The notes beneath the pieces were generated by a model. It had not been told where the DNA came from. It searched no databases and was given only the letters and a program-made list of their open reading frames with translations. This document shows, piece by piece, positions 1,541 to 37,032 of a DNA stretch of 38,966 nt. Location of the stretch: positions 1 through 38,966 of the forward strand of contig SCQK01000005.1 of NCBI GenBank assembly GCA_004321885.1, written 5' to 3'. A program made the position numbers and the translations under genes. The DNA comes from Patescibacteria group bacterium (GTDB lineage Bacteria > Patescibacteriota > Patescibacteriia > Magasanikbacterales > GWA2-37-8). Within the stretch, counting starts at the first letter, position 1, and every line of letters begins with the position of its first letter.

Positions 1541-2965
1541 ATGCAAATATCTTTTTTTGGGGCGGCGAGGGAGGTGACCGGCTCGTGCAATTTGCTTGAA
1601 GCGGGCAAGCACAAAATTTTGATTGACTGCGGCATGTTTCAGGGCAGTGATTTTAATGAGGGAAAAAATTCCGACCCCCTGCCGTTTAATCCGGCCGAAC
1701 TCTCGGCCGTAATTGTCACGCACGCGCACTTGGACCACACCGGCCGTTTGCCACTTTTAATCAAAGGCGGATTTGATGGATATTTCTACGCCACGCCTGC
1801 CACGGTGGAATTGACCCAGTTGGTTTTGGAAGACGCGCTGGAAGTGATGGTATACAACAACCGCAAGTTCGGCAGTCCGATTTTGTACAGCCAAGAAGAC
1901 GTGGCCGGCGTGATGGGGCGGTTCAAGGCGGTGGAGTACGGGGAGACGATGTGTTTACCCCTCCCTCGCCCTCCCCTTATAAAGGGGAGGGGAAATGTTC
2001 GCCTCCCCCTTAATAAGGGGGAGGAACAGGAGGGGGTCGGAATGACAATGTACGATGCCGGGCATATTTTTGGTTCGGCTTTTGTGGAAATTGAAGCCGA
2101 AGGCAAGAGAGTGGTTTTTTCCGGCGACATCGGCAACGTGGATGTGCCTATTTTGAAAGACACGGAGCCGCTCATGGAAAATATTGACGCGCTGATTTGC
2201 GAATCCACTTATGGCAACCGTTTGCACGAGAGCGCCGCGCAAAGGCAAGACATCATTGAAAAGTTTGTCAAAGAGGCCATCGCGCGCGGCGGCACCTTGA
2301 TGATACCGTCGTTTTCTCTGGAGCGCACGCAGGAACTTTTGTACATCTTAAACGATTTGACGGACAGAAAGCACAAACTGCCACGGGTGCCGATTTTTCT
2401 GGACAGCCCGCTGGCCATTGGCGCGACCAAGGTTTACCGCAAATATCCGCGCTATTATGACGAGGACGCGGTTAAGTTGTTTAACGAAGGCGACGACTTG
2501 TTTGAATTTCCGGGCCTCACCATGTGCGACACGAAAGAAGAATCAAAGCGAATAAACCAGGTGCCTAATCCGAAGATAATTATCGCCGGAGCCGGCATGA
2601 TGAACGGCGGCAGGATTTTGCATCATGCCTTGCGCTATTTGACCGACGAGCAGAGCACTTTGCTGATTATCGGATATCAGGCGCAAAATACTTTAGGCCG
2701 GCAAATTCTGGACGGCAAATCCCCGGTGCGCGTGATGGCGGAGAATATTCCGGTGCGCTGTAGCGTGCAAGCCATCGGCGCGTTGTCGGCGCACGCTGAC
2801 CAGGAAAAATTACTGGACTGGATGGGCGGAGGAAAAATGCTGCCTAAAAAAGTTTACCTTAATCACGGCGAGCCCGAGGCAAGCGATGGTTTGGCCGCGC
2901 GGCTCAAAGAGGATTTTGGAGTGAAAGCGACGGTGGTGAATTTGGGATTGAGTGTGAAGGTTTGA
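1541..2965 (+). CDS. MBL-fold beta-CASP ribonuclease (CPSF73/RNase J-like family), 474 aa, with in-frame palindromic-element insert
   Basis: MQISFFGAAREVTGSC...LIDCGMFQG N-terminus and HAHLDHTGRLP (HxHxDH) motif typical of beta-CASP RNA-metabolising metallo-beta-lactamases; internal segment LPLPRPPLIKGRGNVRLPLNKGEEQEG encoded by two tandem family-1 repeat copies. Confidence 0.85.
   Translation: MQISFFGAAREVTGSCNLLEAGKHKILIDCGMFQGSDFNEGKNSDPLPFNPAELSAVIVTHAHLDHTGRLPLLIKGGFDGYFYATPATVELTQLVLEDALEVMVYNNRKFGSPILYSQEDVAGVMGRFKAVEYGETMCLPLPRPPLIKGRGNVRLPLNKGEEQEGVGMTMYDAGHIFGSAFVEIEAEGKRVVFSGDIGNVDVPILKDTEPLMENIDALICESTYGNRLHESAAQRQDIIEKFVKEAIARGGTLMIPSFSLERTQELLYILNDLTDRKHKLPRVPIFLDSPLAIGATKVYRKYPRYYDEDAVKLFNEGDDLFEFPGLTMCDTKEESKRINQVPNPKIIIAGAGMMNGGRILHHALRYLTDEQSTLLIIGYQAQNTLGRQILDGKSPVRVMAENIPVRCSVQAIGALSAHADQEKLLDWMGGGKMLPKKVYLNHGEPEASDGLAARLKEDFGVKATVVNLGLSVKV
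1957..1994. repeat. family-1 palindromic element, copy inside RNase CDS (in frame)
   Basis: cccctccctcgccctccccttataaaggggagggg; translated PLPRPPLIKGRG. Confidence 0.8.
2001..2025. repeat. family-1 palindromic element, second tandem copy inside RNase CDS
   Basis: cgcctcccccttaataagggggagg; translated RLPLNKGEE. Confidence 0.75.
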
Positions 2966-3123: not shown

Positions 3124-3567
3124 ATGACAATCAGTATGTTCATAGGTGAATTTTCGCACAACTTGGATGACAAGGGCCGGTTGGCTGTCCCGAAAAAGTT
3201 CAGGAGCGATTTGGCCAAGGGAGCGGTTGTAACGCGCGGACTGGACAACTGTCTTTTTCTTTACACAAAAAAAGAATGGGAGAAGCTGGCGCAGAAATTG
3301 GCGACGCTACCTTTTGCCAGCGCCAACAACCGGGCGTTTTCGCGCCTGATGTTGGCCGGCGCGATGGATGCCGAGGTTGACGGACAGGGCAGAGTGATGT
3401 TGCCGGAATATTTGCGCCGTTTCGCCAATTTGAAAAAGAACGTGGTCATAGCCGGTCTTTATAACCGGCTGGAAATCTGGGATGAAGAGATATGGAACAA
3501 ATACAAAGGAGCGACCGAGGCCGAGAGCGGGGCCATAGCCGAGAAAATGGCAGAATTGGGGGTTTAA
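3124..3567 (+). CDS. mraZ: transcriptional regulator MraZ
   Basis: two MraZ/AbrB-like repeats with DxKGRxxxP motifs (LDDKGRLAVPKKFR; VDGQGRVMLPEYLR); MFIGEF N-terminus (alternative start at 3136); followed by rsmH. Confidence 0.9.
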   Translation: MTISMFIGEFSHNLDDKGRLAVPKKFRSDLAKGAVVTRGLDNCLFLYTKKEWEKLAQKLATLPFASANNRAFSRLMLAGAMDAEVDGQGRVMLPEYLRRFANLKKNVVIAGLYNRLEIWDEEIWNKYKGATEAESGAIAEKMAELGV

Positions 3568-3675: not shown

Positions 3676-4599
3676 ATGTCACGTCACATTCCTGTTTTAC
3701 TGAAAGAAGTTATTGATTCATTACAATTAAAATCCAACGATAATGTAATTGATTGTACCTTGGGCGACGCCGGCCACGCCGAAGCGATTCTAAACGTGAC
3801 CGCGCCGAACGGAAAACTGTTGGGCATAGACACGGACGCCGAAGCGCTCTTGCGGGCCAAGCGATTTTTATACGGATTCGGCGAACGCGCGATTTACAGC
3901 CGCGGCAATTTCGTTGATTTGGGGAAAATAGCGCGTGAAAACAAATTCGGACAAGCGCAAGGCATATTGATGGACCTGGGCTGGTCCAGCCCGCAGTTTG
4001 AAGAACGAGGCAGGGGATTCAGCTTCGCTAACGACGAACCGCTGGACATGCGCTACGCGCCGGAATGGCAAACCGCCGCCGAACTGATAAACGATTCAAG
4101 CGAAAAAGAACTGGCGAAAATTTTCAAACAATACGGCGAAGAAAAGTTAAGCGCGGAAATAGCGGCCGCGCTCGCGGAAGCAAAAAAAACTGCGCCGATT
4201 GAAACCACTAAACAATTAGTGGAAATAATTTTACAAGTTTATAGAAAGAAATTACACAGCGAGAGAGAGGTTCCGTGGGTGGGCGGATTGCACCCGGCCA
4301 CCAAGGTGTTCCAAGCCCTGCGCATAGCGGTGAACAACGAGCTTGAAGCAATCGGACAAGCTTTGCCTCAAGCGGTTGCGCTGCTGGCGCAGGGCCTGCC
4401 TGCCGGTAGGCATGGCGGACGGCTGGCGGTCATCACATTCCACTCGCTGGAAGACCGCGTGGTCAAACAGTATTTCAAATCAATTGAGAATAAACAAATA
4501 AAAATAATCACGCCCAAGCCGCTCGGCGCCTCGGACGCGGAAGCGGAACAAAATCCGCGAGCACGCAGCGCGAAATTGCGGGTGATAGAAAGAATATAA
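3676..4599 (+). CDS. rsmH: 16S rRNA (cytosine1402-N4)-methyltransferase RsmH (MraW)
   Basis: IDCTLGDAGHAEAIL, DLGWSSPQF, PLDMRY, FHSLEDRVVK, NPRARSAKLRVIE motifs; position after mraZ. Confidence 0.92.
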   Translation: MSRHIPVLLKEVIDSLQLKSNDNVIDCTLGDAGHAEAILNVTAPNGKLLGIDTDAEALLRAKRFLYGFGERAIYSRGNFVDLGKIARENKFGQAQGILMDLGWSSPQFEERGRGFSFANDEPLDMRYAPEWQTAAELINDSSEKELAKIFKQYGEEKLSAEIAAALAEAKKTAPIETTKQLVEIILQVYRKKLHSEREVPWVGGLHPATKVFQALRIAVNNELEAIGQALPQAVALLAQGLPAGRHGGRLAVITFHSLEDRVVKQYFKSIENKQIKIITPKPLGASDAEAEQNPRARSAKLRVIERI

Positions 4600-4608: not shown

Positions 4609-4989
4609 ATGATTTCCAACTGTCATTCCTGCGCAAGCAGGAATCCATCAATATCCAAACGCGCGCGTTTAGTAAGATTTTTTCAAAACATCTCTTTGCC
4701 GGGTTGGCTGACTTCGGTCGCGTTTAGATTAATTTGCCTGGCGATCGCGGCCGGATTCGGTTTCCTGTATGTGGCGAAGACAGCGTCTACGTCCGCGAAC
4801 GGATACAAAATAAATACTCTGGAAAAAGAAACCATCGCGCTGGAAAAAGAAATAGATGAATTGCAGGTGCGGCTGGCCGATTATAGCTCCATGCAAAATA
4901 TTCAAAGCCGGCTGGCCCAGTCCAATATGGCGCCGGTAACTGAATTGAGTTTTTATTCTTCGGTCGGAAAGATTGTGGCCAAGCGATAA
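4609..4989 (+). CDS. FtsL-like cell-division protein (single TM + coiled coil); true start probably downstream of the family-2 element (e.g. TTG near 4700)
   Basis: ORF 4609..4989; TM helix LICLAIAAGFGFLYV followed by coiled coil TLEKETIALEKEIDELQVRLADY; location after rsmH as in dcw clusters; first 13 codons of ORF are the translated hairpin repeat. Confidence 0.45.
   Translation: MISNCHSCASRNPSISKRARLVRFFQNISLPGWLTSVAFRLICLAIAAGFGFLYVAKTASTSANGYKINTLEKETIALEKEIDELQVRLADYSSMQNIQSRLAQSNMAPVTELSFYSSVGKIVAKR
4621..4647. repeat. family-2 hairpin element (TGTCATTCCTGC-gcaagc-GCAGGAATCCA)
   Basis: tgtcattcctgcgcaagcaggaatcca; related copies at 10229, 24045, 34599, 35575, partial at 9794. Confidence 0.7.
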
Positions 4990-5368
4990 TTTTTGTGGTA
5001 CAATACTGGCTGTTATGCCTATTCTTGTATTACAACGGCTGGCCTTGGAAGCGATTCTGGATTTTTTTTATTGGCCTTTTTGGTGGTACAGCAAAGGCGC
5101 GGCGCACGCGGCCAAATGGTGCGCGCATTTGTTTAGAAATATTGAGAACTCTTTGGCGCCCGGGCTGTGGTTGAAAAACATATTCGTGCCCATGTACGGC
5201 CAATACGACTGGCAAGGCCGGCTGGTCAGTTTCTTCATGCGCCTGATACAAATAATTTTCCGCGGCATCGCCGCGTTGGTATTTTTATTGGTTTGTTTCG
5301 GGTTGTTTTTGGTTTGGCTGGTTTTGCCGGTTATTGTTTTGTACGGGTTAGTTTCCGCCATATTGTGA
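4973..5368 (+). CDS. small hypothetical membrane protein
   Basis: ORF 4973..5368, hydrophobic segments (ILAVMPILVLQ; IAALVFLLVCFGLFLVWLVLPVIVLYGLV); no recognisable family. Confidence 0.35.
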   Translation: MWPSDNFCGTILAVMPILVLQRLALEAILDFFYWPFWWYSKGAAHAAKWCAHLFRNIENSLAPGLWLKNIFVPMYGQYDWQGRLVSFFMRLIQIIFRGIAALVFLLVCFGLFLVWLVLPVIVLYGLVSAIL

Positions 5369-5369: not shown

Positions 5370-8150
5370 ATGCTGTTTGAGAAAAATCCGCCGTTAAATA
5401 TAATGACCTGCCCGACGTGTAAATCCACGGGCCGGGCCGGTTGGAAAAAATGTCCCGAGTGCGGGGGCATGGCTTTGGGTCACGCGGCGCGCAACAAGTG
5501 GCTGTTTTGGGATTATCCGCTGGTTCGGCACCATCTTTTGCTGGAAAAAGGCCGGCGCGTGCTAAACAGAATCCGCGTGCTGACGGCTCTGTGCGCCGGC
5601 GTTGTGGCTTGGCTGGGCGCTGGTTTGGAAATTTACAAGCAATACAAAAAATTGCCGTTTAATTTATTTTCGCCCGCGGAGTGGCTGGACACTCTCGCTG
5701 GTTTGAACGTGCCGGGAAAATTTTTATTCTGGCTGGGCCTGGCCGCTTTTTGTTATGTCTGGTATCGCTCCATTCGGCACGGCGAGTTCATGGGGCAGGT
5801 GGAAAAATTTGATTACAACATGGATTCCAGCTCCCGGGCTGGAATGACAGTCACGCCCGCGAATTGGCGCGAGGCCAGAAAACTGGCGCGTGTCAAAAAG
5901 CGCAACATCGCCAAGGCCTTTACCGAAGAAGCGCTGAAAATTTTGGGCGAGGCGTATTTTTTCGCGGACAGGAACGGACAGCGCGAAGTGGCGCCCGCGC
6001 ATTTGTTCGCCGCCCTGCTTACTTCCAATCGCATCAGCAATGTTTTTTCACGGCTGGGTCTGCCCGCCGAGCAGGTGTTGAAAAAATTAACCCCGATTTT
6101 GCAGGCGCAGTCCAAGAGCCAAGACCATTTCACCATGCCTTTGCCTTCGGCGGATTTTTGTCAGGCGTTGTTCGTGGCGTACGAAGAAGCATACAACGGA
6201 CATCAGGAATACGTGAGCGTGACCGAGCTTTTGGCCGCGGCCGTGAAACAAACTCCGGAAATACAAGAATTGCTTTTTGATTTGAACGTCAACCATCAGA
6301 AGCTGGCCAACGTGATTGAGTGGGCGCGCATCAGGGAAAAACTTTATCGCCAGTATTTGCGTTTGCGCCGCGCCGCCTCGCATCATTCCAAACACGGCAT
6401 GGACAAAGCCATGACCGCCATCGCCACGCCATACCTGAATCAGTTCAGCGAAGACATGACTATGCTCGCGCACTTCGGCCATCTGGACGAGTGCGTGGCG
6501 CGCGAAACCGAAACCCAGGAAATTTTCCGCGTCATAGAAGGCGGACAGGCGAACGTTCTGCTCGTGGGCGATTTTGGCACAGGCAAAAGTTCCATCGTGG
6601 AAGGCATCGCCGGAAGAATGCTGACCGACGACGTGCCGGCGCGCTTGCGCGATAAGCGTTTGGTGCGGCTTAGCGTGCCGTCGCTGTTGGCCGGTACCAC
6701 TCCGGCCGGAGCCGTGGAGCGTTTGCGCAACATCATGAACGAGATGGCTCGCGCGCGCAACATTATTTTATACATCCACAATTTACACGAACTTATCGGC
6801 GTCTCGGCCGGCACGGGCAAGGGCAGTTTGGACGTGGCCGACACCTTGGCCGAGTTTTTGGGTGGGGGCCGGTTTCTCACCATCGCCGACACCACTGACG
6901 AATTTTTCGCCCAGCTGGTCGCCAGCACGGCCATCGCCAATGTTTTCACCAAAGTGGAAATTCCGGAAGTGGACGAAAACCAGGCCATTCAGGTTTTGGA
7001 ATCAAAAGCCGGACAGTTGGAATACAAACACAACGTATTTTTTTCCTACGACGCCCTGGAGCGCGCGGTTCAGCTCTCGGCCAAGTTTTTGCACGACACG
7101 CGCTTGCCGGGCAGCGCCCTGGAAGTGATGACCGAAGCCGCCAGTTTGACGCGCAGTAAAAAAGGCGAAAATACTTTGGTGACGGGCGAAGAAGTGGCCA
7201 AAGTGATTTCCGAGAAAAGCAAAGTGCCGGTGACAACAGTCACCAGCGACGAGTCGGCCAAACTTCTACAACTGGAAGAAGAGATGCACAAGCGCGTCAT
7301 CGGGCAGGATGAGGCCGTGAATTTGGTGGCCAACGCTTTGCGCCGCGCGCGCGCCGAGATACGCAGCGGCAAAAGACCCATCGCCAACTTTTTATTCATG
7401 GGTCCGACCGGCGTGGGCAAAACCGAGCTGGCCAAAACCATCGCCGAGGTGTATTTTGGCGGCGAGGAGCGCATGATACGTTTGGACATGAGCGAATTTC
7501 AGGAAGGCGGCAGTATTTACCGCATGATAGGCACGCCCGGGCAAAAGGGCACCGGCATTCTTACCGAAGCCGTGCGCAGTCATCCGTTTTCGCTTTTGCT
7601 TTTGGATGAAATTGAAAAAGCGGACAAAGACGTGTTAAACTTGTTTTTGCAGGTGATGGACGACGGCCGGCTCACCGACAGCACGGGCCGGGTGGTGGAT
7701 TTTACCAACGTGATTTTAATCGCCACTTCCAACGCCGGCACGTCGTATGTGCAGGAGCAAATGCGCGCCGGGCTGTCCAGCGAGGCCATCAAAGAGCGTT
7801 TGCTTCACGGTGAATTGAATAATTATTTTAGGCCCGAGTTTTTGAACCGCTTTGACGGAATAGTGTTGTTTAAGGCATTAGAACGCGAAGATATAAAAAA
7901 GATTGCCGGATTGATGCTGGCGCGCATCGGCAAGAATTTGGAAGAAAAAGGGATTGAGCTTGAGGTGGGCGACCCGGCATTGGAATTTTTGGCCCACATT
8001 GGTTTTGACCCGGAGTTTGGCGCGCGACCCATGCGTCGCGCTTTGCAGGAAAGGGTGGAGAATAAATTGGCTGAGTTGTTGTTGGGTGGGAAGCTCAAAC
8101 GAAAAGATAAGGTGGTGATAGGGGAAGGGGGAGAGATAACGGTGAAATGA
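5370..8150 (+). CDS. ClpC/ClpA-like double-AAA+ ATPase with N-terminal zinc ribbon and membrane anchor; degenerate D1 Walker B
   Basis: N-term CPTC...CPEC zinc ribbon then TM helices; two Clp-N repeats; D1 Walker A GDFGTGKSSIVEGIAGRM, D1 Walker B position reads ILYIHNLHELIG (IHN instead of IDE); D2 Walker A GPTGVGKTELAKTIA and Walker B/sensor LLLLDEIEKADKDVLNLFLQVMDDGRLTD. Confidence 0.8.
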   Translation: MLFEKNPPLNIMTCPTCKSTGRAGWKKCPECGGMALGHAARNKWLFWDYPLVRHHLLLEKGRRVLNRIRVLTALCAGVVAWLGAGLEIYKQYKKLPFNLFSPAEWLDTLAGLNVPGKFLFWLGLAAFCYVWYRSIRHGEFMGQVEKFDYNMDSSSRAGMTVTPANWREARKLARVKKRNIAKAFTEEALKILGEAYFFADRNGQREVAPAHLFAALLTSNRISNVFSRLGLPAEQVLKKLTPILQAQSKSQDHFTMPLPSADFCQALFVAYEEAYNGHQEYVSVTELLAAAVKQTPEIQELLFDLNVNHQKLANVIEWARIREKLYRQYLRLRRAASHHSKHGMDKAMTAIATPYLNQFSEDMTMLAHFGHLDECVARETETQEIFRVIEGGQANVLLVGDFGTGKSSIVEGIAGRMLTDDVPARLRDKRLVRLSVPSLLAGTTPAGAVERLRNIMNEMARARNIILYIHNLHELIGVSAGTGKGSLDVADTLAEFLGGGRFLTIADTTDEFFAQLVASTAIANVFTKVEIPEVDENQAIQVLESKAGQLEYKHNVFFSYDALERAVQLSAKFLHDTRLPGSALEVMTEAASLTRSKKGENTLVTGEEVAKVISEKSKVPVTTVTSDESAKLLQLEEEMHKRVIGQDEAVNLVANALRRARAEIRSGKRPIANFLFMGPTGVGKTELAKTIAEVYFGGEERMIRLDMSEFQEGGSIYRMIGTPGQKGTGILTEAVRSHPFSLLLLDEIEKADKDVLNLFLQVMDDGRLTDSTGRVVDFTNVILIATSNAGTSYVQEQMRAGLSSEAIKERLLHGELNNYFRPEFLNRFDGIVLFKALEREDIKKIAGLMLARIGKNLEEKGIELEVGDPALEFLAHIGFDPEFGARPMRRALQERVENKLAELLLGGKLKRKDKVVIGEGGEITVK

Positions 8151-8152
8151 CA

Positions 8153-8169
8153 AATTTCCAATTTCCAAT
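8153..8169. promoter_or_regulatory. AATTTCCAATTTCCAAT direct repeats (reverse complement of TTGGAAATT array at 3619)
   Basis: caaatttccaatttccaatg in intergenic region after ClpC-like gene. Confidence 0.35.
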
Positions 8170-8182
8170 GTCAAATTTGACA
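8169..8182. promoter_or_regulatory. perfect 14-nt palindrome TGTCAAATTTGACA upstream of MraY/WecA-like gene (candidate operator)
   Basis: self-complementary tgtcaaatttgaca ~70 nt upstream of ATG 8251. Confidence 0.35.
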
Positions 8183-8250
8183 TTAGTCATCGGACATTGA
8201 TTGGAAATGCTTCCCTTCGGTCAGAAAAAGGGTAATTAAAATTTGATATT

Positions 8251-9285
8251 ATGGCTTATTTTTTTTCTGCCTTTCTACTATCTGTATTGCTTACATTTAT
8301 AGTAAGAAAGCTCGCGATACGTTTGAATGTGATGGATATTCCCGATGGCGGGAGAAAGGCACACTCCGGAAAGGTGCCGCTTCTTGGGGGAGCGGCGATT
8401 TTTTTTGCGTTTTGGGCCGTGATTTTTTATTTGTTTTTTTATCCGACAGCCGGAGTGGAACTTTTACAAGAAAAATTATTGGCGGCATTTTTCGCGAGTT
8501 TGGTAATCATGGTTATTGGTTTTATTGATGACGCGCGGCCGCTTCCAGCCAAAATCCGTTTTTTGATCACGGCTTTGGCCATCGGCGCGGCGGTTTTATT
8601 TACGCCGTGGCTCGGAAAAATCACCAATCCGCTGGGCGGGGTTTTGGAATTGGGTTTGGTGTTTGGCAATGTGCTTGCTTTTTTCTGGCTGCTCGGCATG
8701 ACTTATACCACTAAAATTTTGGACGGTTTGGATGGGTTGGCGACGGGTATAGCGGCTATCGGCGCTTTGATGATATATTTTTTATCCAGTTCGCAAAAGT
8801 ATCATCAACCCAACGTGGCGTTGTTGGCGCTGATTTTAGCCGGGGTCCTGTTCGGGTTTTTGCTTTTCAATTTTCATCCGGCCAAGATTTTTTTGGGCGA
8901 GAGCGGCAGTTTGCTGGTTGGTTTTTTACTCGCAGTGCTCGCCATCATCGCCGGCGGCAAAATCGCCACGGCTTTACTCGTGCTCGCTATTCCCATTTTG
9001 GATTTGGCGCGCGTCGTTTATTTGCGTTTGGCGCGGGGCCAGCCGATTTCGCAAGGCGACCGCGAACATTTGCATTTTCGTTTGCTTGACATGGGCATGA
9101 GCCAGCGCCGCGCCGTGCTTTTGCTTTACGGCGTCGCGCTTGCTTTTGGATTGTCCACTTTGTTTTTACAGTCATATCAAAAGTTAATCGCCTTGCTTTT
9201 TTTGGTTGTAGCCATGGGCGTGGCGGGCGTGTGGTTGCGCCGACGTTCCCCTCCCCTTTATAAGGGGAGGGATAGGGAGGGGTAA
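8251..9285 (+). CDS. polyprenyl-phosphate sugar-phosphate transferase, MraY/WecA (GT4/PNPT) family; C-terminal 13 codons are a family-1 repeat
   Basis: multi-TM; DIPDGGRKAHSGKVPLLGG, IGFIDDARPL, KILDGLDGLATG motifs of MraY/WecA family; tail RRRSPPLYKGRDREG is translated palindromic element. Confidence 0.8.
   Translation: MAYFFSAFLLSVLLTFIVRKLAIRLNVMDIPDGGRKAHSGKVPLLGGAAIFFAFWAVIFYLFFYPTAGVELLQEKLLAAFFASLVIMVIGFIDDARPLPAKIRFLITALAIGAAVLFTPWLGKITNPLGGVLELGLVFGNVLAFFWLLGMTYTTKILDGLDGLATGIAAIGALMIYFLSSSQKYHQPNVALLALILAGVLFGFLLFNFHPAKIFLGESGSLLVGFLLAVLAIIAGGKIATALLVLAIPILDLARVVYLRLARGQPISQGDREHLHFRLLDMGMSQRRAVLLLYGVALAFGLSTLFLQSYQKLIALLFLVVAMGVAGVWLRRRSPPLYKGRDREG
9246..9282. repeat. family-1 palindromic element (inside 3' end of CDS; provides SD for next gene)
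   Basis: ttcccctcccctttataaggggagggatagggagggg. Confidence 0.8.
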
Positions 9286-9288
9286 AGT

Positions 9289-9774
9289 ATGTTTTTCAAA
9301 AAACGCGAAAACAAACAAATAAAAAAATGGGAGTGGATAATGCTTTTGGTTATCCTCGGTTTTTCCATTTTCGGCAAAATATATTATTCGCGTTGGCCCA
9401 CCGCCGTGGTGAAAATCGGGGGGCGGGAAGTGAGCGTGCTGGTGGCGGACAACGAATTGCACCGATTCAAGGGTTGGAGCAAGCGCGACGATATGGGCAA
9501 ATACGGCGGCATGCTGTTTGTATTTCCCGAGCGCGGCCAGCACGCCATGGTGATGCGCGATATGCGTTTTCCTTTGGATATTATTTGGATAGACGGCACG
9601 AAGATTGTGGATATAGCGCCAAATCTTCAACCGGACCCGGCTAATACCGAAGCTGGACTGACCCCATATTTCGCCCGTTTACCTTCTACTTTGGTATTGG
9701 AATTATCCTCGGGTTTCACTCAGAAAAACGGGGTAAAAATAGGGGATACTATTTCTATTTCCTCCCCCTATTAG
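9289..9774 (+). CDS. DUF192 domain protein
   Basis: N-term TM then GWSKRDDMGKYGGMLFVFPE...MRDMRFPLDIIWIDG pattern characteristic of DUF192/COG1430; stop codon TAG is the loop of a family-1 element. Confidence 0.7.
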   Translation: MFFKKRENKQIKKWEWIMLLVILGFSIFGKIYYSRWPTAVVKIGGREVSVLVADNELHRFKGWSKRDDMGKYGGMLFVFPERGQHAMVMRDMRFPLDIIWIDGTKIVDIAPNLQPDPANTEAGLTPYFARLPSTLVLELSSGFTQKNGVKIGDTISISSPY

Positions 9775-31439: not shown

Positions 31440-31600
31440 TACCTGTTCCCAAAACAGGTGTTTTTGGGTATAAATAATATAGTCTTTGAAAATTAAAGTA
31501 GGTTTGGCGCTTGGCGCCACAACAGGGCAACGATAAGGACGTGCCCTAACAGCGAGCCACGACAAGGACGAGCTCGCAAACGGAGAGAATGGAGAGAGAG

Positions 31601-33487
31601 ATGAGCGATGAGAGAAACGAGGGAAGGAGCCCCCTCTGGAACGGCTCCCGGGACGAGGGCCCGCAGCGACCCCACACACCAACGCTTGATGGTCTGGTAG
31701 CTGTGGTCGACCAGCCGGAGGAGCAGCCCGCACTGCTTCATTGCCCGTGCGGGTGGCAGGTGTACTCGCGGGCTACGGCGAAGATAGCCATGGTCAGCAA
31801 CTCGTGTCCGCTGACCGGAGACGAGCTGGCCCTGACGGTGGAGGATGTTGCGAAGCTCGCGGACGAACTTCGCGATGTCCACGCCTTCCCCATCCGCACC
31901 TTCTTTCAGAAGGTGCAGTTCCCGGTGACGGTCGTCTGCGACTGCGGCGACTCGGAGCTGGAATTGGTGGAGAGCGGGGTGGAGGAGGAGTGTGTGAAGT
32001 GCCGCCGGCACTATGTCATTACCGCGGACGCGGAGATGTACATGGTGATTGACAAGAAATTGGCGCGGCCGGACACGCTCCGCACCGGCCAGCCCGTGGC
32101 GCCCACGGCTTCGGGTGAGGTGGACTCGCGTCCGACCATCGCGCCGGCCGGGCCCGACGAGGAAACGCGGGTCGGAGAGCCTGTCCCGCTGGTGGAGACG
32201 TCGGACGTCCCGGACGACGCCCAGACCAGCGAGCGCGTTTCGCCTCCGCCGGAGGAGTCTGGTCATCAGATGGTCCAGGCGCCGGACGCCGACCCCTCGG
32301 ACTTCGAGGGCAAGAGCCCGACGGCTCCTGGCGTAATACCCGAAGAGGAGCTGGTGGCTCTGGAGCTGATGGCTTCGTTGGCAGCGGCCGCCAGCGGTCC
32401 GGCCCAGGGCCCGGCTTTTGACCAGTCGGGTATGGCCGTGTTGGACGTGAACTGCCCGGAGTGCAGAAGGGTCTTCACGGTCAATCGCGAGCTGGGTGCG
32501 GCGATGTGTCCGCACTGCAGGGCCGTGTTTGAGGTTTTGGTAGCGGGCGGCCGGGTTGAGTTTGTCCGGTGCGTGGTGCCGGGCAACAAACTGCCTCCGC
32601 CCACCCCGCTCGACGCGGGCGGCAGAACCCAGCAGGGCTTTGTCTCGCCCGTGCCGCCGAGGCAGGACCCGCCGACGTTGGATCAGCCCCTCGCCCAGCT
32701 CGATGTTCTTCGGGACAAGAGCCGCGAGAGGTCACAGCCCGGCGAGTCCGAGGCGTCTGCGTTGCCAGCACCCGCGGAGGCGATTCCGCTCTCCGCCATC
32801 GCGGCGCCGACCGGCGTCGGACCGAGCTTCAAGCTGGTGGACGTCTCCCGGGCGCGTTTGCGCGCGAGCGTCAGTCTCGGCCCGAAGGACCGACAGTCAA
32901 CGGGCGAGATTCGCCCAGCGGCGCGTCGCCTGCCTCGCTGGGTCCATGGCGCGTTCGGCGTGCTCGGGCTCGGATTCTGTGTGCTCTTGGGGATAGTGCT
33001 GAATCAGGGCGCTCTCCTCAAGGAGAACACGCGGCGGAGCCAGGCGGCCGAGCAGAAGAGTGCCGCGGCCGAGGAGCAGAGCAAGGCCGCGGCGAAGGAT
33101 AGTGCCGAGGCTGTGCTCAAGAGCGCGCGGGCCGAAGTTGAGGCCAAGACCGCCAGAAAAACGGCGGACAAGGCCAATACCCGATTGGACACGCAGGAGG
33201 CGGCGCGCGAGAAGCTGGACAAGGAGCTCGCCGCCAGCGCACGGTCTGTCGCCGCCTTCCAGAAGGCGACGAATACGGCCATTGGGAACATCAAGGGCCA
33301 GGTCGCTAGACAGAGTGCTGATCTGCGTCAGACAATCGCAAGGGCGCAGGCAACGCTTGACCAAATCAAGCGCGACCTGGCTTCGGCGAACGCGGCGCCC
33401 GCCAAGCGCGTCCCGCCATCGTTCCTACCCGCCAAGGTTCCCAAGATGCGCCCCCCGGATCACCTGATACGGCGTCGCAACGACTAA
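31601..33487 (+). CDS. zinc-ribbon (MJ0042-like) / single-TM / C-terminal coiled-coil protein, GC-rich
   Basis: three CxxC...CxxC pairs (HCPCGW..SCPLTG; CDCGDS..CVKCRRH; NCPECRRVF..CPHCRAVFEV); TM VHGAFGVLGLGFCVLLGIVL; A/K/Q-rich coiled coil; GGAGAGAG SD before ATG 31601. Confidence 0.55.
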   Translation: MSDERNEGRSPLWNGSRDEGPQRPHTPTLDGLVAVVDQPEEQPALLHCPCGWQVYSRATAKIAMVSNSCPLTGDELALTVEDVAKLADELRDVHAFPIRTFFQKVQFPVTVVCDCGDSELELVESGVEEECVKCRRHYVITADAEMYMVIDKKLARPDTLRTGQPVAPTASGEVDSRPTIAPAGPDEETRVGEPVPLVETSDVPDDAQTSERVSPPPEESGHQMVQAPDADPSDFEGKSPTAPGVIPEEELVALELMASLAAAASGPAQGPAFDQSGMAVLDVNCPECRRVFTVNRELGAAMCPHCRAVFEVLVAGGRVEFVRCVVPGNKLPPPTPLDAGGRTQQGFVSPVPPRQDPPTLDQPLAQLDVLRDKSRERSQPGESEASALPAPAEAIPLSAIAAPTGVGPSFKLVDVSRARLRASVSLGPKDRQSTGEIRPAARRLPRWVHGAFGVLGLGFCVLLGIVLNQGALLKENTRRSQAAEQKSAAAEEQSKAAAKDSAEAVLKSARAEVEAKTARKTADKANTRLDTQEAAREKLDKELAASARSVAAFQKATNTAIGNIKGQVARQSADLRQTIARAQATLDQIKRDLASANAAPAKRVPPSFLPAKVPKMRPPDHLIRRRND

Positions 33488-33740: not shown

Positions 33741-33891
33741 TAACAGTTAAAATCAAATTAGTTTCAATGCGCGAGAGAGGCATTGTATGAGGATTTCACT
33801 CATCAAGCCACTCCCGCGTCCACGGGTTTTTTTCTTTACAATCGTCTCTGACATTAGTAATGCCGGAGCACAACAAGAAAGGAGGCCAGGA

Positions 33892-34515
33892 ATGGCCGAT
33901 GAACCGAAAGTCATCGTCGAGGTAGACAAGGAGTGTCTTTTTTGCAAGCGGGACATCCCCCAGCTCCAGGAGGAGCTGGCGGGTGTGAAGAAGTTGCAAG
34001 AGGCGCAGGAGGACGCGGTCGGTGGCAGTTTGCGCCGACTGCGTATGGGTATGACGGCCTTCGCGGTCGCGTTGGCGTTGATTGTCGTCATCAGTCTTGT
34101 TGTGGTTTACATCCGCCTGACCGAGACGACGGGCCAGCGCGCCGCTCCGGTTCCCAGCCGGCTGGTCCAGCGCTTGTCCCAGACAGAACAGCGTCTGGGC
34201 AAGCTGGAGGGGACCATCGGGCTTTTGAAAAGCGCGATGGAGAGGCTTGCGGAGCAGTTCGGAAAGGTGCTCTCCGACATCACCAAGATGCCGAAGGCAT
34301 CACAACCGCCTGCCTCCCAGCCGGTGGTCACTGCGCCGCCGCTCCGGACAACGCCGCTTGTCAAGACGGCCAAGCCGAGTGAAAGAGAGGGCCTGTTGCC
34401 CTGCAAGCAGGAGAAGGAGTCCTGCGTAAAGGGGAATGAAGGTCGCGTCGGCAAGGAGAGGGCCCTGCAGTTTTGCGCCACTTTCTTCAGACAGGGAGGG
34501 CCGAACTGCAAGTGA
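33892..34515 (+). CDS. hypothetical TM + coiled-coil protein, GC-rich (start could be 33787)
   Basis: AGGAGG 6 nt upstream of ATG 33892; TM AFAVALALIVVISLVVVYI; coiled-coil segment. Confidence 0.45.
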   Translation: MADEPKVIVEVDKECLFCKRDIPQLQEELAGVKKLQEAQEDAVGGSLRRLRMGMTAFAVALALIVVISLVVVYIRLTETTGQRAAPVPSRLVQRLSQTEQRLGKLEGTIGLLKSAMERLAEQFGKVLSDITKMPKASQPPASQPVVTAPPLRTTPLVKTAKPSEREGLLPCKQEKESCVKGNEGRVGKERALQFCATFFRQGGPNCK

Positions 34516-34630: not shown

Positions 34631-34873
34631 CACCGGAATTCACGGTCGTATACAGTGAATTTGGAAGGAACATTACAATAAGCGAAATGAGCGAGTAAAT
34701 AATTTTGCTTGCAAAATTATTTCGAGCGAATGAGCTTTATATCATTGATATATTCTGGTTCGCAAAAAGGACAGGTGTCATTGCGAGCGAAGCAATCCCG
34801 TCTTATTTGCGACCCAGAATTTCAACCCGGTTTCCGCCTGCTGGACGCAGGCAAAAATGAAAGGAGGCACATT

Positions 34874-35470
34874 ATGTGCCGTCTGATCGGAGAGCTCGAC
34901 GGCGAGCTGTTCGCCGTCGAGCTGAACAAGCTCGGCGCTGTCCCCCCCTCCCCCAACCAGCCCCCGGCGGCCCCGCCCCGGCCCGGCGGCGGCGCCCAGC
35001 CGCCCGTTGGCGCGGGCGCGCCCCCCGCGGGCGCGTGCAGGGCCACGCCCTGCCGGTTCTCGTCGTGGCTGATCATTGCCGCGGTGGGGCTGGCAGCGGT
35101 GGCGATCATCATCACGATGATCGCCCTGCGCGACGGCAAGTCGGCGCAGGTCGCGCCCGCGGTCGCCCCGACCAAGTCGGTGCCGGCTACTCCGGCTGCC
35201 GCGGCCGCGACGCCCGCCAAGCCGGCACTCCCCCCCAATCAGATTGGCGCCCTGCCGGTCTACGGGGGCGGCGTGCACCTCCCCAGCATCACGCTGGAGG
35301 TCGCTCGCCCGCCGGTTGCGCCCGCGCCGGTCCTACCGCCCTTGGCCCCGCCGCCCGCGCCGAGCGCGGCGTTCCCGTCCTGTGACCAGGACGCGGAGTG
35401 CCTCGCGCTTGTCGCCGCCCACGGCGCCGGCGCCCGCCCCCGCTGCCCGCAGTTCTTCAACTGCCGGTAG
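34874..35470 (+). CDS. Pro/Ala-rich single-TM hypothetical protein
   Basis: AAAGGAGG SD 6 nt upstream of ATG 34874; TM WLIIAAVGLAAVAIIITMIAL; PA-rich low complexity. Confidence 0.45.
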   Translation: MCRLIGELDGELFAVELNKLGAVPPSPNQPPAAPPRPGGGAQPPVGAGAPPAGACRATPCRFSSWLIIAAVGLAAVAIIITMIALRDGKSAQVAPAVAPTKSVPATPAAAAATPAKPALPPNQIGALPVYGGGVHLPSITLEVARPPVAPAPVLPPLAPPPAPSAAFPSCDQDAECLALVAAHGAGARPRCPQFFNCR

Positions 35471-35941: not shown

Positions 35942-36793
35942 ATGTTGAAGATGGTTGCGGCGATGATCGCCGCGCTGTACATCCTCGCGGTGAGTGCCAC
36001 CTCGGCGCTCGCCCAGAACACCCCCCCCGCGGCGGTCGCTCCGGCCGCGAAGTCATCGGCGATGCAAATCGCCGACCTCACCCTGAAGTTCGAGAAGGCC
36101 GAGAGCGACATCGCGTCGCTGAAGGCCAAGCTCGCGGCGCCGGCCCCGACCGCGCCAGACGGCAAGGCATTGTGCCAGTTCTGGGCACCGTGCAAGAACG
36201 CCGTCGCCGACGAGGCGGGGAAGATCCAAACGGTGATCAAGACCATCAAGGTCAAGATTGCCGACCCATCTCTCCTCGCCAAGCTCCGCCTGGCGGAGCT
36301 CGAGCTCGCGAAGCTCACCGAGCGGCTCGGCGCCCAGGCCGGGCTGGCCCAGCACAACGCGGAGGCCGCGAAGGGCCAGCTCGCGCTGGCTGGTCAGGTT
36401 CTGGCCATGGGTCAGCACCCGGAGCTCGCGAAGTACGCGCGGTGTCGGGGCGGCTTCAAGCTCAGGACCACGGTCTACACGCCGACGAGTTCAACCCTTT
36501 CGCTCGACTGTGAGCGAGAGGTTGACCTCGCGCGGGTGGAGAAGGTGGAGGGCCCGCTCGCCGCTGCCCAGGCGGCCGCGGCCGCTCGCCAGCCCCTCGC
36601 GCCCCCACCCGCGCCGGAGAAAAAGTCCGGCCGGTGCGGAACCGGTTGTATCATCGCGGCCATCACGATCCCGGCTGCGATCGTCGGTGCCGTGGTCGTC
36701 GGTGCTCTGCTCGCCACCCGTGAGGACCACAACACGGTGGTGACACCGACGAAGACGACCTCCGCGCTGAGCATCCGGTTCAAGGGGCTGTAG
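35942..36793 (+). CDS. secreted coiled-coil protein with signal peptide and C-terminal TM anchor
   Basis: AAGGAG SD before start; signal peptide MLKMVAAMIAALYILAVSATSALAQ; C-terminal TM CIIAAITIPAAIVGAVVVGALLA. Confidence 0.5.
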   Translation: MLKMVAAMIAALYILAVSATSALAQNTPPAAVAPAAKSSAMQIADLTLKFEKAESDIASLKAKLAAPAPTAPDGKALCQFWAPCKNAVADEAGKIQTVIKTIKVKIADPSLLAKLRLAELELAKLTERLGAQAGLAQHNAEAAKGQLALAGQVLAMGQHPELAKYARCRGGFKLRTTVYTPTSSTLSLDCEREVDLARVEKVEGPLAAAQAAAAARQPLAPPPAPEKKSGRCGTGCIIAAITIPAAIVGAVVVGALLATREDHNTVVTPTKTTSALSIRFKGL

Positions 36794-36980
36794 GCTGTAG
36801 ATAGTACACACGCGTCTCTGAGACATTGCGCGTGCACTCCCAATGATCTGTACAACCGATCCCAATCGGGCGTACAGTTACGGGAGGGTCTCGCCATTGC
36901 GCACGCGCAATGGCTCCCAATTATTTTCCTATGCTACGCATGGGGAAATTGAGGGAATAGATCATTACAACAACAAACTG

Positions 36981-37000
36981 CCTCCGCCGATAAGGGGAGG
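36981..37000. repeat. degenerate family-1 element (cctccgccgataaggggagg)
   Basis: partial inverted repeat upstream of lipoprotein gene. Confidence 0.4.
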
Positions 37001-37032
37001 CGCAACAGTTGTTAGAAAGAGAGGAGGTCGCC

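What the first reader, a model, noticed from the sequence alone, without database searches (positions are those of the whole stretch)
5370..8150. Membrane-anchored ClpC/ClpA-like ATPase with N-terminal zinc ribbon and degenerate D1 Walker B, embedded in the dcw cluster
This protein has canonical Clp-N repeats and a canonical D2 domain (GPTGVGKT; LLLLDEIEKA...DDGRLTD). It also begins with CPTC..CPEC, followed by two or three TM helices. Its D1 Walker B reads IHN instead of IDE, which predicts a hydrolysis-deficient D1 ring. It lies between the ftsL-like gene and the MraY/WecA-like gene, where FtsI and Mur enzymes normally sit. A membrane-tethered unfoldase at a division or cell-wall locus is unusual.
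Basis: partly seen in the sequence, partly recalled or inferred. Interest (0 to 1): 0.6.

Follow-up and report, generated by a model that had tools for sequence, protein, structure and literature searches.

The report
Membrane-anchored Clp-like ATPase with small partner
This gene encodes a membrane-anchored relative of the Clp/Hsp100 protein-remodelling ATPases with one dead ATPase ring, no protease-docking loop and no substrate-gripping tyrosines; it is always paired with a small membrane protein inside the cell-division/cell-wall operon of hundreds of ultra-small (Patescibacteria) bacterial species, and its function has apparently never been studied.

Summary
ORF 5370..8150 (+, 926 aa) is a two-ring Clp/Hsp100 ATPase. 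It has an N-terminal C4 zinc knuckle (CPTC/CPEC), two TM helices, a Clp_N domain, a degenerate D1 (Walker B IHN, not IDE) and a catalytically intact D2.

Tools added four points.
- D1 has also lost its pore-loop Tyr and both Arg fingers.
- D2 has lost its pore-loop Tyr (GYVG becomes GQKG, four residues shorter).
- There is no M-domain and no hydrophobic-Gly-hydrophobic ClpP-docking tripeptide.
- A conserved 117-aa membrane helical-hairpin gene (5015..5368) lies immediately upstream in every locus examined (window, 3 + 80 + 7 loci), usually 1-4 nt away or overlapping.

The architecture recurs in over 100 clusters (50% identity), down to 27% identity. Every taxon-informative name is Patescibacteria. 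The partner occurs in 559 species-representative genome stretches.

In Magasanikbacteria the order is mraZ-rsmH-ftsL-like-partner-Clp, then a WecA-like GT4 with DUF192, or FtsW.

Best reading: a ClpP-independent membrane AAA+ machine with D1 as scaffold and D2 as sole motor. It acts with its partner on envelope or division components, probably not by classical threading. The biological role is inferred.

Verdict: a new, uncharacterised variant of a known kind.

The parts
5370..8150 (+). TM-anchored Clp/Hsp100-like AAA+ ORF (926 aa plus stop)
   Evidence: ORF list. Pfam and NCBIfam. PDB sequence search. AlphaFold2 pLDDT 82, with Foldseek top hits ClpC and ClpB.
5409..5462 (+). N-terminal C4 zinc knuckle: CPTC (residues 14-17) and CPEC (28-31). 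The family consensus is CxxCxGxG-x(5-7)-CxxCxGxG, which is DnaJ-CR-like.
   Evidence: The Cys are invariant. Pfam hits to DnaJ_CXXCXGXG (E 0.014) and Anti-TRAP (E 0.018) are weak and sub-threshold. The motif is visible in distant relatives.
5559..5639 (+). TM helix 1 (about residues 64-90)
   Evidence: Hydropathy. AlphaFold2 helix 53-90. Positively charged flank 'EKGRRVLNRIR' on the N-side.
5709..5780 (+). TM helix 2 (about residues 114-137), followed by YRSIR and a linker of about 45 residues
   Evidence: Hydropathy segment 114-130. AlphaFold2 helix 114-139. The motif FW.S...D.YL.YR is conserved across the family.
5916..6380 (+). Clp_N-type N-domain (residues 183-337)
   Evidence: HMMER alignment to ClpC residues 5-140. 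Pfam Clp_N at 198-240. Eight helices in the AlphaFold2 model.
6387..6440 (+). Family-specific conserved linker motif SKHGMDKAMTAIATPYLN (residues 340-357), predicted disordered
   Evidence: Invariant G343, M344, D345, A347, M348, T349, A350. Conserved across distant representatives. Absent from ClpA and ClpB. pLDDT below 50 at residues 342-350.
6441..7244 (+). D1 pseudo-ATPase module. Walker A is GDFGTGKSS (400-408). Pore loop KYR is replaced by T-PA (443-446). Walker B IDE is replaced by I469-H470-N471 (nt 6774-6782). Arg fingers RR are replaced by N524-V525. No M-domain.
7245..8147 (+). D2 active ATPase module. Walker A is GPTGVGKT (678-685), Walker B is D746-E747, sensor-1 is N788, the Arg finger is R827 and sensor-2 is R886. 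The pore loop GTPGQKGTG (721-729, nt 7530-7556) lacks Tyr. The position equivalent to the ClpP loop reads RAGLS (799-803).
5015..5368 (+). Partner gene: a 117-aa membrane helical hairpin with the conserved loop GLWLKNIFVPMYGQYDWQGR. Its stop lies 1 nt before the Clp ATG.
   Evidence: No Pfam or NCBIfam hit. 296 homologs of about 117 aa. AlphaFold2 pLDDT 94, helices 2-47 and 66-116. Found upstream of the Clp gene in all loci checked. Median spacer 3 nt.
3124..3567 (+). mraZ (first gene of the predicted operon)
   Evidence: Pfam MraZ 6.2e-41. Promoter-like site at 3052-3080 and terminator-like hairpin at 2990-3008 upstream.
3676..4599 (+). rsmH/mraW
   Evidence: Pfam Methyltransf_5 5.6e-96.
4609..4989 (+). 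ftsL-like gene (weak assignment)
   Evidence: Pfam FtsL_2 at 20.9 bits and NCBIfam FtsL_Actino at 25.6 bits, both below cut-off. Conserved position.
8251..9285 (+). GT4 polyprenyl-phosphate sugar-1-phosphate transferase, WecA/TagO-like rather than MraY
   Evidence: Pfam Glycos_transf_4 5.3e-33. NCBIfam WecA 123 bits against MraY 59.5 bits. Downstream neighbour in 61 of 80 loci, median spacer 15 nt.
9289..9774 (+). DUF192 gene, last gene of the predicted operon. A terminator-like hairpin follows at 9845-9884.

Best explanation
The ORF encodes a member of a large, uncharacterised, Patescibacteria-wide family of membrane-anchored Clp/Hsp100-type AAA+ proteins, called 'TM-Clp' here.

Shown:
- A cytoplasmic C4 (DnaJ-like CxxCxGxG-type) zinc knuckle and a two-helix membrane hairpin tether a Clp_N-D1-D2 body to the inner face of the membrane.
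- D1 keeps its fold and, in this protein, its P-loop Lys. It has lost the Walker B acidic pair, both Arg fingers and the pore-loop Tyr.
- D2 keeps every catalytic residue.
- There is no M-domain and no ClpP-docking tripeptide.
- The gene is translationally coupled to an invariably adjacent 117-aa membrane helical-hairpin gene.
- It sits in an apparent operon mraZ-rsmH-ftsL-like-partner-TM-Clp-GT4(WecA-like)-DUF192.

Inferred:
- The protein assembles into a hexamer whose D1 ring is a nucleotide-binding, non-hydrolysing scaffold and whose D2 ring is the only motor.
- The D1/N-domain face points towards the membrane.
- The partner's positively charged cytoplasmic hairpin, with its conserved tip, docks on the ring.
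- The machine works without a peptidase. In this clade the D2 pore loop is short, has no aromatic residue and varies across the family. The machine therefore most likely uses ATP-driven conformational change to remodel, assemble or release membrane-associated envelope or division components, rather than threading polypeptides hand over hand.
- The identity of the client is not known.
For: Architecture and motifs:
- Family-wide statistics over 107 representatives (50%-identity clusters) are. D2 Walker A K and T are kept in 107 of 107. D2 Walker B D and E are kept in 106. Sensor-1 N is kept in 106. The Arg finger and sensor-2 R are kept in 105.
- In contrast, the D1 Walker B Glu is kept in 2 of 107 and the D1 pore Tyr in 0. 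The D1 Arg fingers are kept in 13-16.
- The D2 pore Tyr or Phe is kept in 9.

No ClpP motif: 1 of 107 representatives has a hydrophobic-Gly-hydrophobic tripeptide in the loop. Close homologs read [ANQSK]-G-[LVITAM].

The N-terminal module is real. It is conserved from residue 1 in 120 close homologs and in about 100 distant clusters.

Partner gene:
- It is present immediately upstream in the window, in 3 homolog contigs, in 80 of 80 GTDB loci and in 7 of 7 distant loci (33-38% identity or lower), including one where it was not called.
- The median spacer is 3 nt and the genes often overlap.
- The AlphaFold2 hairpin has pLDDT 94.

Operon: no terminator-like hairpin lies outside coding sequence between 3009 and 9844, and strong ones lie at 2990 and 9845.

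Distribution: 559 species-representative genome stretches encode the partner. The taxon-informative source names are Patescibacteria, Parcubacteria or Magasanikbacteria.
Against: - No experiment or complex model supports hexamer formation, partner docking or the absence of translocation.
- Nine of 107 representative clusters keep a GY/GF D2 pore loop, so the ancestral protein may have threaded substrates. Non-aromatic pore loops do not strictly exclude translocation.
- The conserved order with GT4, L21 and recR may partly reflect inherited synteny rather than function. In two distant loci (L007, L091) neither dcw genes nor GT4 flank the pair.
- The presence or absence of clpP in this genome could not be checked.
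- D1 nucleotide binding is uncertain across the family. The Walker A Lys is R, M, V, T or A in 16 of 107, and the following Thr is often R or K.
Confidence: 0.55

Rival explanations
1. It is a membrane-tethered, ClpP-independent dislocase or unfoldase. The D2 ring still threads polypeptides, for example pulling membrane proteins or the small partner out of the bilayer through the membrane-facing pore, as FtsH, Msp1 or Cdc48 do. Clients are released into the cytoplasm.
For: - The topology puts the N-domain/D1 face next to the membrane.
- D2 catalytic residues are invariant.
- Nine of 107 representative clusters retain GAPPGY or GAPPGF D2 pore loops, so threading may be ancestral.
- A DnaJ-type zinc knuckle and a Clp_N domain are typical substrate or adaptor receptors (function from general knowledge).
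Against: - In this protein and in all 120 close homologs the D2 loop is G-x-P-G-[EQ]-K-G-[TS]-G, with no aromatic residue and four residues shorter than in ClpA and ClpB. The D1 loop is TPAG.
- Across the family the D2 loop varies in both length and sequence, which is unexpected for a substrate-gripping element.
Confidence: 0.27
2. It is an ordinary ClpC/ClpA-type activator of the ClpP peptidase that happens to be anchored to the membrane. In that case it would be a membrane-localised Clp protease acting on division or cell-wall proteins.
For: - Source annotations call it 'ATP-dependent Clp protease ATP-binding subunit ClpC/ClpA'.
- The best PDB matches are ClpC.
- ClpA aligns over its full length in one stretch.
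- Query 'AGL' can be aligned with ClpA 'IGL'.
Against: - The tripeptide is not conserved and is not hydrophobic at position 1: [ANQSK]-G-x in close homologs, and only 1 of 107 representatives has a hydrophobic-Gly-hydrophobic tripeptide.
- NCBIfam scores are far below the cut-offs: ClpA 510 against 993, ClpB 559 against 1232.
- The pore tyrosines needed to feed ClpP are absent.
- No clpP lies in the 39-kb window or in the flanks inspected.
Confidence: 0.05
3. It is an artefact. Either the start is mis-called, so that the zinc knuckle and TM region are not translated, or the gene is a decaying ClpC pseudogene whose degenerate motifs reflect loss of function.
For: Several catalytic and pore motifs are degenerate. 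There is no strong Shine-Dalgarno sequence before the ATG.
Against: - The ORF is intact at 926 aa.
- The N-terminal 180 residues are conserved, with invariant Cys, in over 200 proteins down to 27% identity.
- D2 motifs are invariant.
- The degenerate D1 motifs are themselves conserved (IHN, TTPAGAVE, NVFTK), which indicates purifying selection.
- The stop/start arrangement with the upstream gene is conserved.
Confidence: 0.02

Closest known systems
ClpC (B. subtilis, S. aureus; class-I Clp/Hsp100)
   Same: Best sequence match (3j3t, E 3.3e-130; D2 alone 301 bits) and best structural match. Both have a Clp_N domain, two AAA+ modules and a ClpB_D2-small C-terminal domain.
   Different: ClpC is soluble. 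It has a short M-domain, active D1 and D2, KYR and GYVG pore loops and a VGF ClpP loop. It uses MecA and McsB adaptors. None of these features is present here.
ClpA (E. coli)
   Same: N-D1-D2 architecture without an M-domain, aligning in a single stretch. The proposed division of labour matches what is described for ClpA: D1 mainly for assembly, D2 as the main motor (general knowledge).
   Different: ClpA hydrolyses ATP in D1, has both pore tyrosines and the IGL ClpP loop, binds ClpS and is cytosolic. The NCBIfam ClpA score is 510 against a cut-off of 993.
ClpB/Hsp104 disaggregases
   Same: No ClpP-docking motif. Highest NCBIfam score (559 bits, in two stretches). D2 is about 50% similar.
   Different: ClpB needs its long M-domain for DnaK coupling and needs both pore tyrosines. 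Here the M-domain is deleted and the tyrosines are lost. The cut-off of 1232 is not reached.
ClpE and ClpX (N-terminal zinc-binding Clp ATPases)
   Same: An N-terminal C4 zinc module precedes the AAA+ body.
   Different: The zinc motif here is of the CxxCxGxG (DnaJ-CR/Anti-TRAP-like) type and is followed by two TM helices. ClpE and ClpX are soluble ClpP partners with IGF-type loops (general knowledge). ClpX NCBIfam scores are only 31-49 bits.
FtsH (membrane-anchored AAA+ protease)
   Same: Two N-terminal TM helices place a hexameric AAA+ ring at the cytoplasmic face of the membrane. FtsH works with small or accessory membrane partners (HflK/C, YccA) (general knowledge).
   Different: FtsH has one AAA module of the classical clade, an aromatic pore loop and a fused M41 peptidase. 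None of these is found here.
Two-ring AAA+ proteins with one non-hydrolysing ring (NSF D2, Pex1/Pex6 D1, p97 D1-type)
   Same: One ring is degenerate and presumably structural, and the other is the motor (inference from motifs).
   Different: These belong to a different AAA+ clade. Their active ring keeps aromatic pore loops, and they are not integral membrane proteins (general knowledge).

Membership tests
Clp/Hsp100 class I (two-AAA+ Clp ATPases) | Clp_N N-domain | tested here: met
   Pfam Clp_N at 23.8 bits against a cut-off of 20.7 (one repeat). Residues 183-320 align to ClpC N-domain residues 5-140. Eight-helix fold in the AlphaFold2 model.
Clp/Hsp100 class I (two-AAA+ Clp ATPases) | Two tandem AAA+ modules (D1 with AAA_lid_9; D2 as AAA_2 plus ClpB_D2-small) | tested here: met
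   Pfam AAA_lid_9, AAA_2 and ClpB_D2-small are all above cut-off. Foldseek TM-score 0.75-0.82 to ClpC and ClpB D1-D2 chains.
Clp/Hsp100 class I (two-AAA+ Clp ATPases) | Catalytically competent D1 (Walker B D-E, Arg fingers) | tested here: not met
   IHN replaces IDE and NV replaces RR. The Walker B Glu is kept in 2 of 107 representatives.
Clp/Hsp100 class I (two-AAA+ Clp ATPases) | Aromatic pore-1 loops (KYR in D1, GYVG in D2) | tested here: not met
   TPAG in D1 and GQKG in D2. Kept in 0 of 107 (D1) and 9 of 107 (D2) across the family.
ClpA / ClpC / ClpE / ClpX (ClpP-activating unfoldases) | Hydrophobic-Gly-hydrophobic (IGF/IGL/VGF) ClpP-docking loop | tested here: not met
   The query reads R-A-G-L-S. 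Close homologs read [ANQSK]-G-[LVITAM]. Only 1 of 107 representatives has [ILVMF]-G-[FLIMV] anywhere in the loop.
ClpA (NCBIfam TIGR02639 equivalog) | Score at or above the curated cut-off | tested here: not met
   510.2 bits against 993.15.
ClpB (NCBIfam TIGR03346 equivalog) | Score at or above the curated cut-off, and a coiled-coil M-domain inserted in D1 | tested here: not met
   559 bits against 1232.1, split into two stretches. The M-domain region of ClpB (about residues 410-530) is a gap in the query and all homologs.
ClpV/TssH, ClpG, ClpK | Score at or above the curated cut-off | tested here: not met
   437 against 885, 447 against 1900 and 438 against 1900. No T6SS genes lie in the neighbourhood.
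DnaJ cysteine-rich (CxxCxGxG) zinc-finger domain | Match to PF00684 above the gathering score; four CxxCxGxG repeats forming two zinc centres | tested here: not met
   16.1 bits against 32.7 (E 0.014). Only two CxxC(xGxG) motifs are present, enough for one zinc centre. This is a resemblance, not membership.
Proposed 'TM-Clp plus small partner' module (defined here) | Zinc knuckle and TM hairpin N-terminal to Clp_N-D1(degenerate)-D2(active), with the partner gene immediately upstream | tested here: met
   All features are present in the window and recur in homologs.
Physical complex or hexamer with the partner | Direct interaction, stoichiometry, orientation of the ring to the membrane | not testable with these tools
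   Only single-chain structure prediction was available.

The most novel reading that the evidence does not exclude
TM-Clp and its helical-hairpin partner form a previously unrecognised two-component membrane-remodelling or divisome machine specific to Patescibacteria. It occupies the dcw position where ftsI, murE and murF normally lie. It would use a non-threading, single-active-ring Hsp100 to drive assembly or disassembly of the partner, or of septal envelope-synthesis complexes (WecA-like GT4, FtsW). Functionally this would be closer to an ESCRT-III/Vps4-type or SNARE/NSF-type recycling system than to a Clp protease.
Probability: 0.12. Interest if true: 0.9.

Novelty: new variant of a known kind. 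Interest (0 to 1): 0.62.

Why it matters
Clp/Hsp100 ATPases are textbook soluble threading machines. I know of no integral-membrane class-I member, none with a fully degenerate D1, and none lacking both pore tyrosines, and four full-text searches found none.

This family combines all three features. It is under clear purifying selection. It is found in hundreds of Patescibacteria species, always with the same small membrane partner, and usually inside the division/cell-wall operon. Databases currently label it 'ClpC/ClpA protease subunit', which the motif tests contradict.

If the predicted properties hold, the family would extend the mechanistic range of Hsp100 proteins to a non-proteolytic, probably non-threading machine with a single active ring. 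It would also identify a lineage-specific component of envelope biogenesis or division in ultra-small bacteria, whose cell biology is almost unknown. Finally, it gives a concrete two-gene target for biochemistry and cryo-EM.

Tried and rejected
1. A profile search of the 5.8-billion-protein collection with a 25-sequence alignment of the N-terminal module (A2) returned one fragment only. The word-index pre-filter fails on this hydrophobic, divergent region, so the search said nothing about distribution. The exhaustive representative search answered the question instead.
2. Pfam and NCBIfam scans of the small partner, including four distant orthologs at E up to 5, gave nothing meaningful.
3. Foldseek of the partner model against the PDB gave no hit with E below 1. 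The top hits were generic helical hairpins, including PspA/Vipp1 at E 3.6-4.5, and I do not treat them as evidence.
4. Four literature searches and one paper check found no description of a membrane-anchored Clp in Patescibacteria.
5. A scan of viral contigs for the partner found none, so the module is not phage-borne.
6. I first dismissed the ClpP loop on length alone. I withdrew that argument when E. coli ClpA aligned without an insertion and replaced it with a residue-level test across the family.
7. MraY identity of the downstream GT4 was considered and rejected in favour of WecA/TagO-like.
8. A mis-called start and a pseudogene were both rejected on conservation.
9. Whether the genome has clpP, clpX or clpB could not be tested, because only the 39-kb window and flanks of up to 10 kb of relatives are accessible.


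Full report

The window has an uninterrupted ORF at 5370..8150 (+), 926 aa. Pfam assigns AAA_2 (2.4e-50), ClpB_D2-small (6.8e-26), AAA_lid_9, AAA and one Clp_N repeat. NCBIfam ranks ClpB (559 bits), ClpA (510), ClpG, ClpK and ClpV, all at roughly half their curated cut-offs. The best solved relative is B. subtilis ClpC (E 3.3e-130).

An AlphaFold2 model built on 57 homologs has pLDDT 82 and pTM 0.73. It superposes on ClpC and ClpB D1-D2 chains with target-normalised TM-scores of 0.75-0.82. The identical protein is in NCBI as 'ATP-dependent Clp protease ATP-binding subunit [Patescibacteria group bacterium]'. The feature is real and far beyond chance.

**2. Anatomy**

*N-terminal module.*
- Residues 14-17 (CPTC) and 28-31 (CPEC) form a C4 knuckle. 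In more distant relatives the motif reads CxxCxGxG-x(5-7)-CxxCxGxG. That is the DnaJ-CR/Anti-TRAP type, although Pfam hits are sub-threshold (E 0.014-0.018).
- A short beta-hairpin (36-47) follows.
- Next come two hydrophobic helices: hydropathy gives 64-80 and 114-130, and AlphaFold2 gives helices 53-90 and 114-139. Basic residues flank them on the N-side of TM1 (EKGRRVLNRIR) and the C-side of TM2 (YRSIRH).
- With two TM helices, both the zinc knuckle and the ATPase body are cytoplasmic. Only a variable loop of about 23 residues is outside. This topology is an inference from the positive-inside rule.
- A linker of about 45 residues leads to a Clp_N domain (183-337) that aligns with the ClpC N-domain.
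- A family-specific segment, SKHGMDKAMTAIATPYLN (340-357), lies between the N-domain and D1. It is invariant in close homologs and conserved in distant ones. It is missing from ClpA and ClpB and predicted disordered. It remains unexplained.

*D1.* Alignments with ClpC (HMMER) and with E. coli ClpA and ClpB fetched from NC_000913 agree on every position.

| Element | Canonical Clp | This protein |
|---|---|---|
| Walker A | GxxGxGKT | GDFGTGKSS (Lys kept) |
| Pore loop | AGAKYRGEFE | AGTT-PAGAVE (no Tyr) |
| Walker B | IDE | I469-H470-N471 |
| Sensor-1 | Thr | Thr kept |
| Arg fingers | LERRFQ | IANVFT |

The coiled-coil M-domain of ClpB and ClpC is absent, as in ClpA.

*D2.*
- The catalytic residues are all present: Walker A GPTGVGKT, Walker B D746-E747, sensor-1 N788, Arg finger R827 and sensor-2 R886.
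- The pore-1 loop is GTP----GQKGTG where ClpA and ClpB have GAPPGYVGY. It is four residues shorter and has no aromatic residue.
- At the position of the ClpA IGL loop the query reads RAGLS.

**3. The family**

*Close homologs.* At least 120 full-length homologs (58-67% identity, 95-100% coverage) exist. Those with taxon-informative names are Candidatus Magasanikbacteria or Patescibacteria. Their alignment conserves the N-terminus from residue 1, the four Cys, both TM segments, IHN and TTPAGAVE.

*Distant relatives.* An exhaustive HMMER search of 1.84 billion cluster representatives with residues 1-630 gave 1031 proteins at E below 1e-30. Among the best 150, about 100 are roughly 900 aa long and align from query residues 3-15 at 27-55% identity. 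The family is therefore broad.

Motif statistics over 107 full-length representatives:

| Residue | Conserved in |
|---|---|
| D2 Walker A Lys and Thr | 107 of 107 |
| D2 Walker B D-E and sensor-1 N | 106 |
| D2 Arg finger and sensor-2 R | 105 |
| D1 Walker B Glu | 2 |
| D1 pore Tyr | 0 |
| D1 Arg fingers | 13-16 |
| D1 Walker A Lys | 91 (12 have Arg) |
| D2 pore-loop Tyr or Phe | 9 |

- Elsewhere the D2 pore loop varies in length and sequence.
- Only 1 of 107 has any [ILVMF]-G-[FLIMV] tripeptide in the ClpP-loop region.
- Seventy-three of 108 have two CxxC motifs, and all have at least one strongly hydrophobic N-terminal segment, mostly two.
- Where the source names are taxon-informative they read Patescibacteria or Parcubacteria.
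- A few records are labelled 'uncultured Gammaproteobacteria' or 'Udaeobacter'. They share the same sequence and synteny, so these look like mislabelled MAGs. That is an inference.

**4. Context**

*Gene order in the window*:
- beta-CASP RNase (1541..2965), followed by a terminator-like hairpin at 2990-3008
- mraZ (3124..3567)
- rsmH (3676..4599)
- ftsL-like (4609..4989; weak hits)
- a 117-aa ORF (5015..5368)
- TM-Clp (5370..8150)
- GT4 (8251..9285)
- DUF192 (9289..9774), followed by a strong terminator-like hairpin at 9845-9884
- L21, then recR, ybaB and dnaB on the other strand

The terminator positions come and suggest one operon. This is a consensus scan, not proof. The GT4 scores higher with WecA (123 bits) than with MraY (59.5 bits), both below cut-off.

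*The 117-aa ORF is the key addition.*
- It has no family assignment.
- It has 296 homologs of about 117 aa, all labelled 'hypothetical'.
- It is predicted with pLDDT 94 as two long helices (2-47 and 66-116). These are joined by the highly conserved loop GLWLKNIFVPMYGQYDWQGR.
- Its two ends are hydrophobic and its middle is net positive, which suggests a membrane hairpin with a cytoplasmic stalk and tip (inference).

*The partner always accompanies TM-Clp.*
- It lies directly upstream of the TM-Clp gene in three homolog contigs.
- The same holds in all 80 loci recovered from GTDB species representatives.
- It also holds in all seven loci of distant family members. One of these had the partner uncalled.
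- The partner's stop and the Clp start are separated by a median of 3 nt and often overlap. This suggests translational coupling.
- The two peptide patterns used found 559 species-representative genome stretches encoding the partner, and none in viral contigs.

*Flanking genes in the 80 Magasanikbacteria-level loci.* Most carry mraZ-rsmH-ftsL-like upstream. Downstream, 61 carry GT4 (mostly with DUF192 and L21) and about 13 carry FtsW. Among distant members, GT4 follows in four of seven. Two (L007, L091) have neither dcw genes nor GT4. The invariant unit is therefore the two-gene pair, and the dcw/GT4 association is frequent but not universal.

**5. How it most likely works**

*Shown:*
- architecture
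- degenerate D1
- intact D2 catalytic site
- no M-domain
- no ClpP tripeptide
- no pore tyrosines in this clade
- an obligate neighbouring membrane partner
- membership of the envelope/division operon

*Inferred:*
- The protein forms the usual Hsp100 hexamer.
- D1 binds but does not hydrolyse nucleotide and serves as an assembly scaffold. ClpA-D1 and NSF-D2 show this division of labour (general knowledge).
- D2 is the only motor.
- The N-terminal tether places the N-domain/D1 face towards the membrane, where the zinc knuckle, the N-domain, the GMDKAMTA linker and the partner's cytoplasmic tip are available for client or partner binding.
- No peptidase is engaged.

The D2 pore loop has no aromatic residue and evolves freely while the catalytic site is frozen. 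I therefore favour ATP-driven remodelling, assembly or release of membrane-associated envelope or division components over processive threading (confidence about 0.55 for this overall picture).

The main rival is a membrane-protein dislocase that still threads (about 0.27). The FtsH-like geometry and the GY/GF pore loops retained in 9 of 107 representative clusters support it. A conventional ClpP partner (about 0.05) and an artefact or pseudogene (about 0.02) are contradicted by tested features.

**6. Comparison with known systems**

By sequence and fold the protein belongs to the class-I Clp/Hsp100 lineage and is closest to ClpC.

It fails the defining tests of the named subfamilies:
- ClpA, ClpC and ClpE: the ClpP loop and the pore tyrosines
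- ClpB: the M-domain and the score cut-off
- ClpV, ClpG and ClpK: the score cut-offs

It also resembles proteins outside that lineage:
- ClpE and ClpX, in having an N-terminal zinc module
- FtsH, in its membrane topology
- NSF and Pex1/6, in having one dead ring

It is a member of none of these.

Four full-text searches and one paper check found no description of such a protein. The library is incomplete, so prior description cannot be excluded.

**7. Verdict**

The interpretation 'membrane-tethered ClpC/ClpA-like unfoldase' is only partly supported. This is a new, widespread, uncharacterised variant of a known kind, currently mis-annotated as a Clp protease subunit. Interest is 0.62. An AAA+ specialist would find the motif combination and the obligate partner surprising, and the predictions are directly testable. 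The biological role, however, rests on inference.

**8. Limits**

There is no multimer modelling and no whole-genome access, so clpP, ftsI and mraY status is unknown. There is no experimental data. Promoter and terminator calls are consensus matches only. The N-terminal profile search of the large collection failed for technical reasons.

Noticed in passing
window 1492-1531, 1955-2026, 9235-9286, 9750-9782, 10579-10618, 10815-10855, 11618-11665, 14410-14449, 19441-19462, 25738-25761, 33620-33666, 35657-35705: A palindromic element of about 40 nt (core CCCTCCCCTTATAAAGGGGAGGG with a TTACCCC(T/C)CCCT flank) occurs at least 12 times. Several copies lie in frame inside genes. The beta-CASP gene has a 21-23 aa insert and recR a 9-10 aa insert, both absent from orthologs. 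The GT4 gene has a C-terminal extension. This resembles the Rickettsia palindromic elements that insert into ORFs (own knowledge).
   Followed up: partly
window 3570-3670 and 8146-8200: AT-rich repeats of TTGGAAATT/CAATTG lie in the mraZ-rsmH spacer. Inverted copies (AATTTCCAATTTCCAAT) lie in the spacer between the Clp gene and GT4. They may be operator or internal promoter elements of the operon.
   Followed up: no
window 32000-38966: G+C rises from about 0.50 to 0.65-0.69. ORFs there (31589..33487, 33787..34515, 34709..35470, 35942..36793, 36843..37448, 37009..37890) have no Pfam hit. There are 129-nt tandem repeats at 38644-38901 and Cys-rich 'TCPQDC' repeats at 37330-37440. The region may be foreign or hypervariable surface-protein DNA.
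   Followed up: no
window 26025-31361 (+): A 1778-aa ORF has no Pfam or NCBIfam match.
   Followed up: no
window 95-577 (+) and 757-1635 (-): A Cys-rich Stig1-like ORF (9.4e-13) lies next to a pentapeptide-repeat protein (2.6e-35).
   Followed up: no
window 17620-19395 (+): A VirD4/TraG/TrwB-like type IV coupling ATPase. The same gene follows the conserved block in a relative (L003).
   Followed up: no
window 21036-21941 (-): The ORF containing SmpB is 300 aa, but the SmpB domain covers only residues 156-297. This is either an N-terminal extension or an over-extended ORF.
   Followed up: no
window 13271-15373 (+): A 700-aa polytopic membrane protein with no family hit. It is syntenic in relatives, at 703-714 aa in L001 and L003.
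   Followed up: no
L001 3504-9596: In one relative a 2030-aa FG-GAP/PG_binding_1 protein is inserted between the ftsL-like gene and the partner-Clp pair. This explains loci where mraZ lies beyond the 8-kb flank.
   Followed up: partly
loci L011, L015, L016, L018, L020-L022 and others: Many GTDB records carrying this Patescibacteria-type locus are titled 'uncultured Gammaproteobacteria bacterium' or 'Candidatus Udaeobacter sp.'. These are probably mislabelled MAGs.
   Followed up: no
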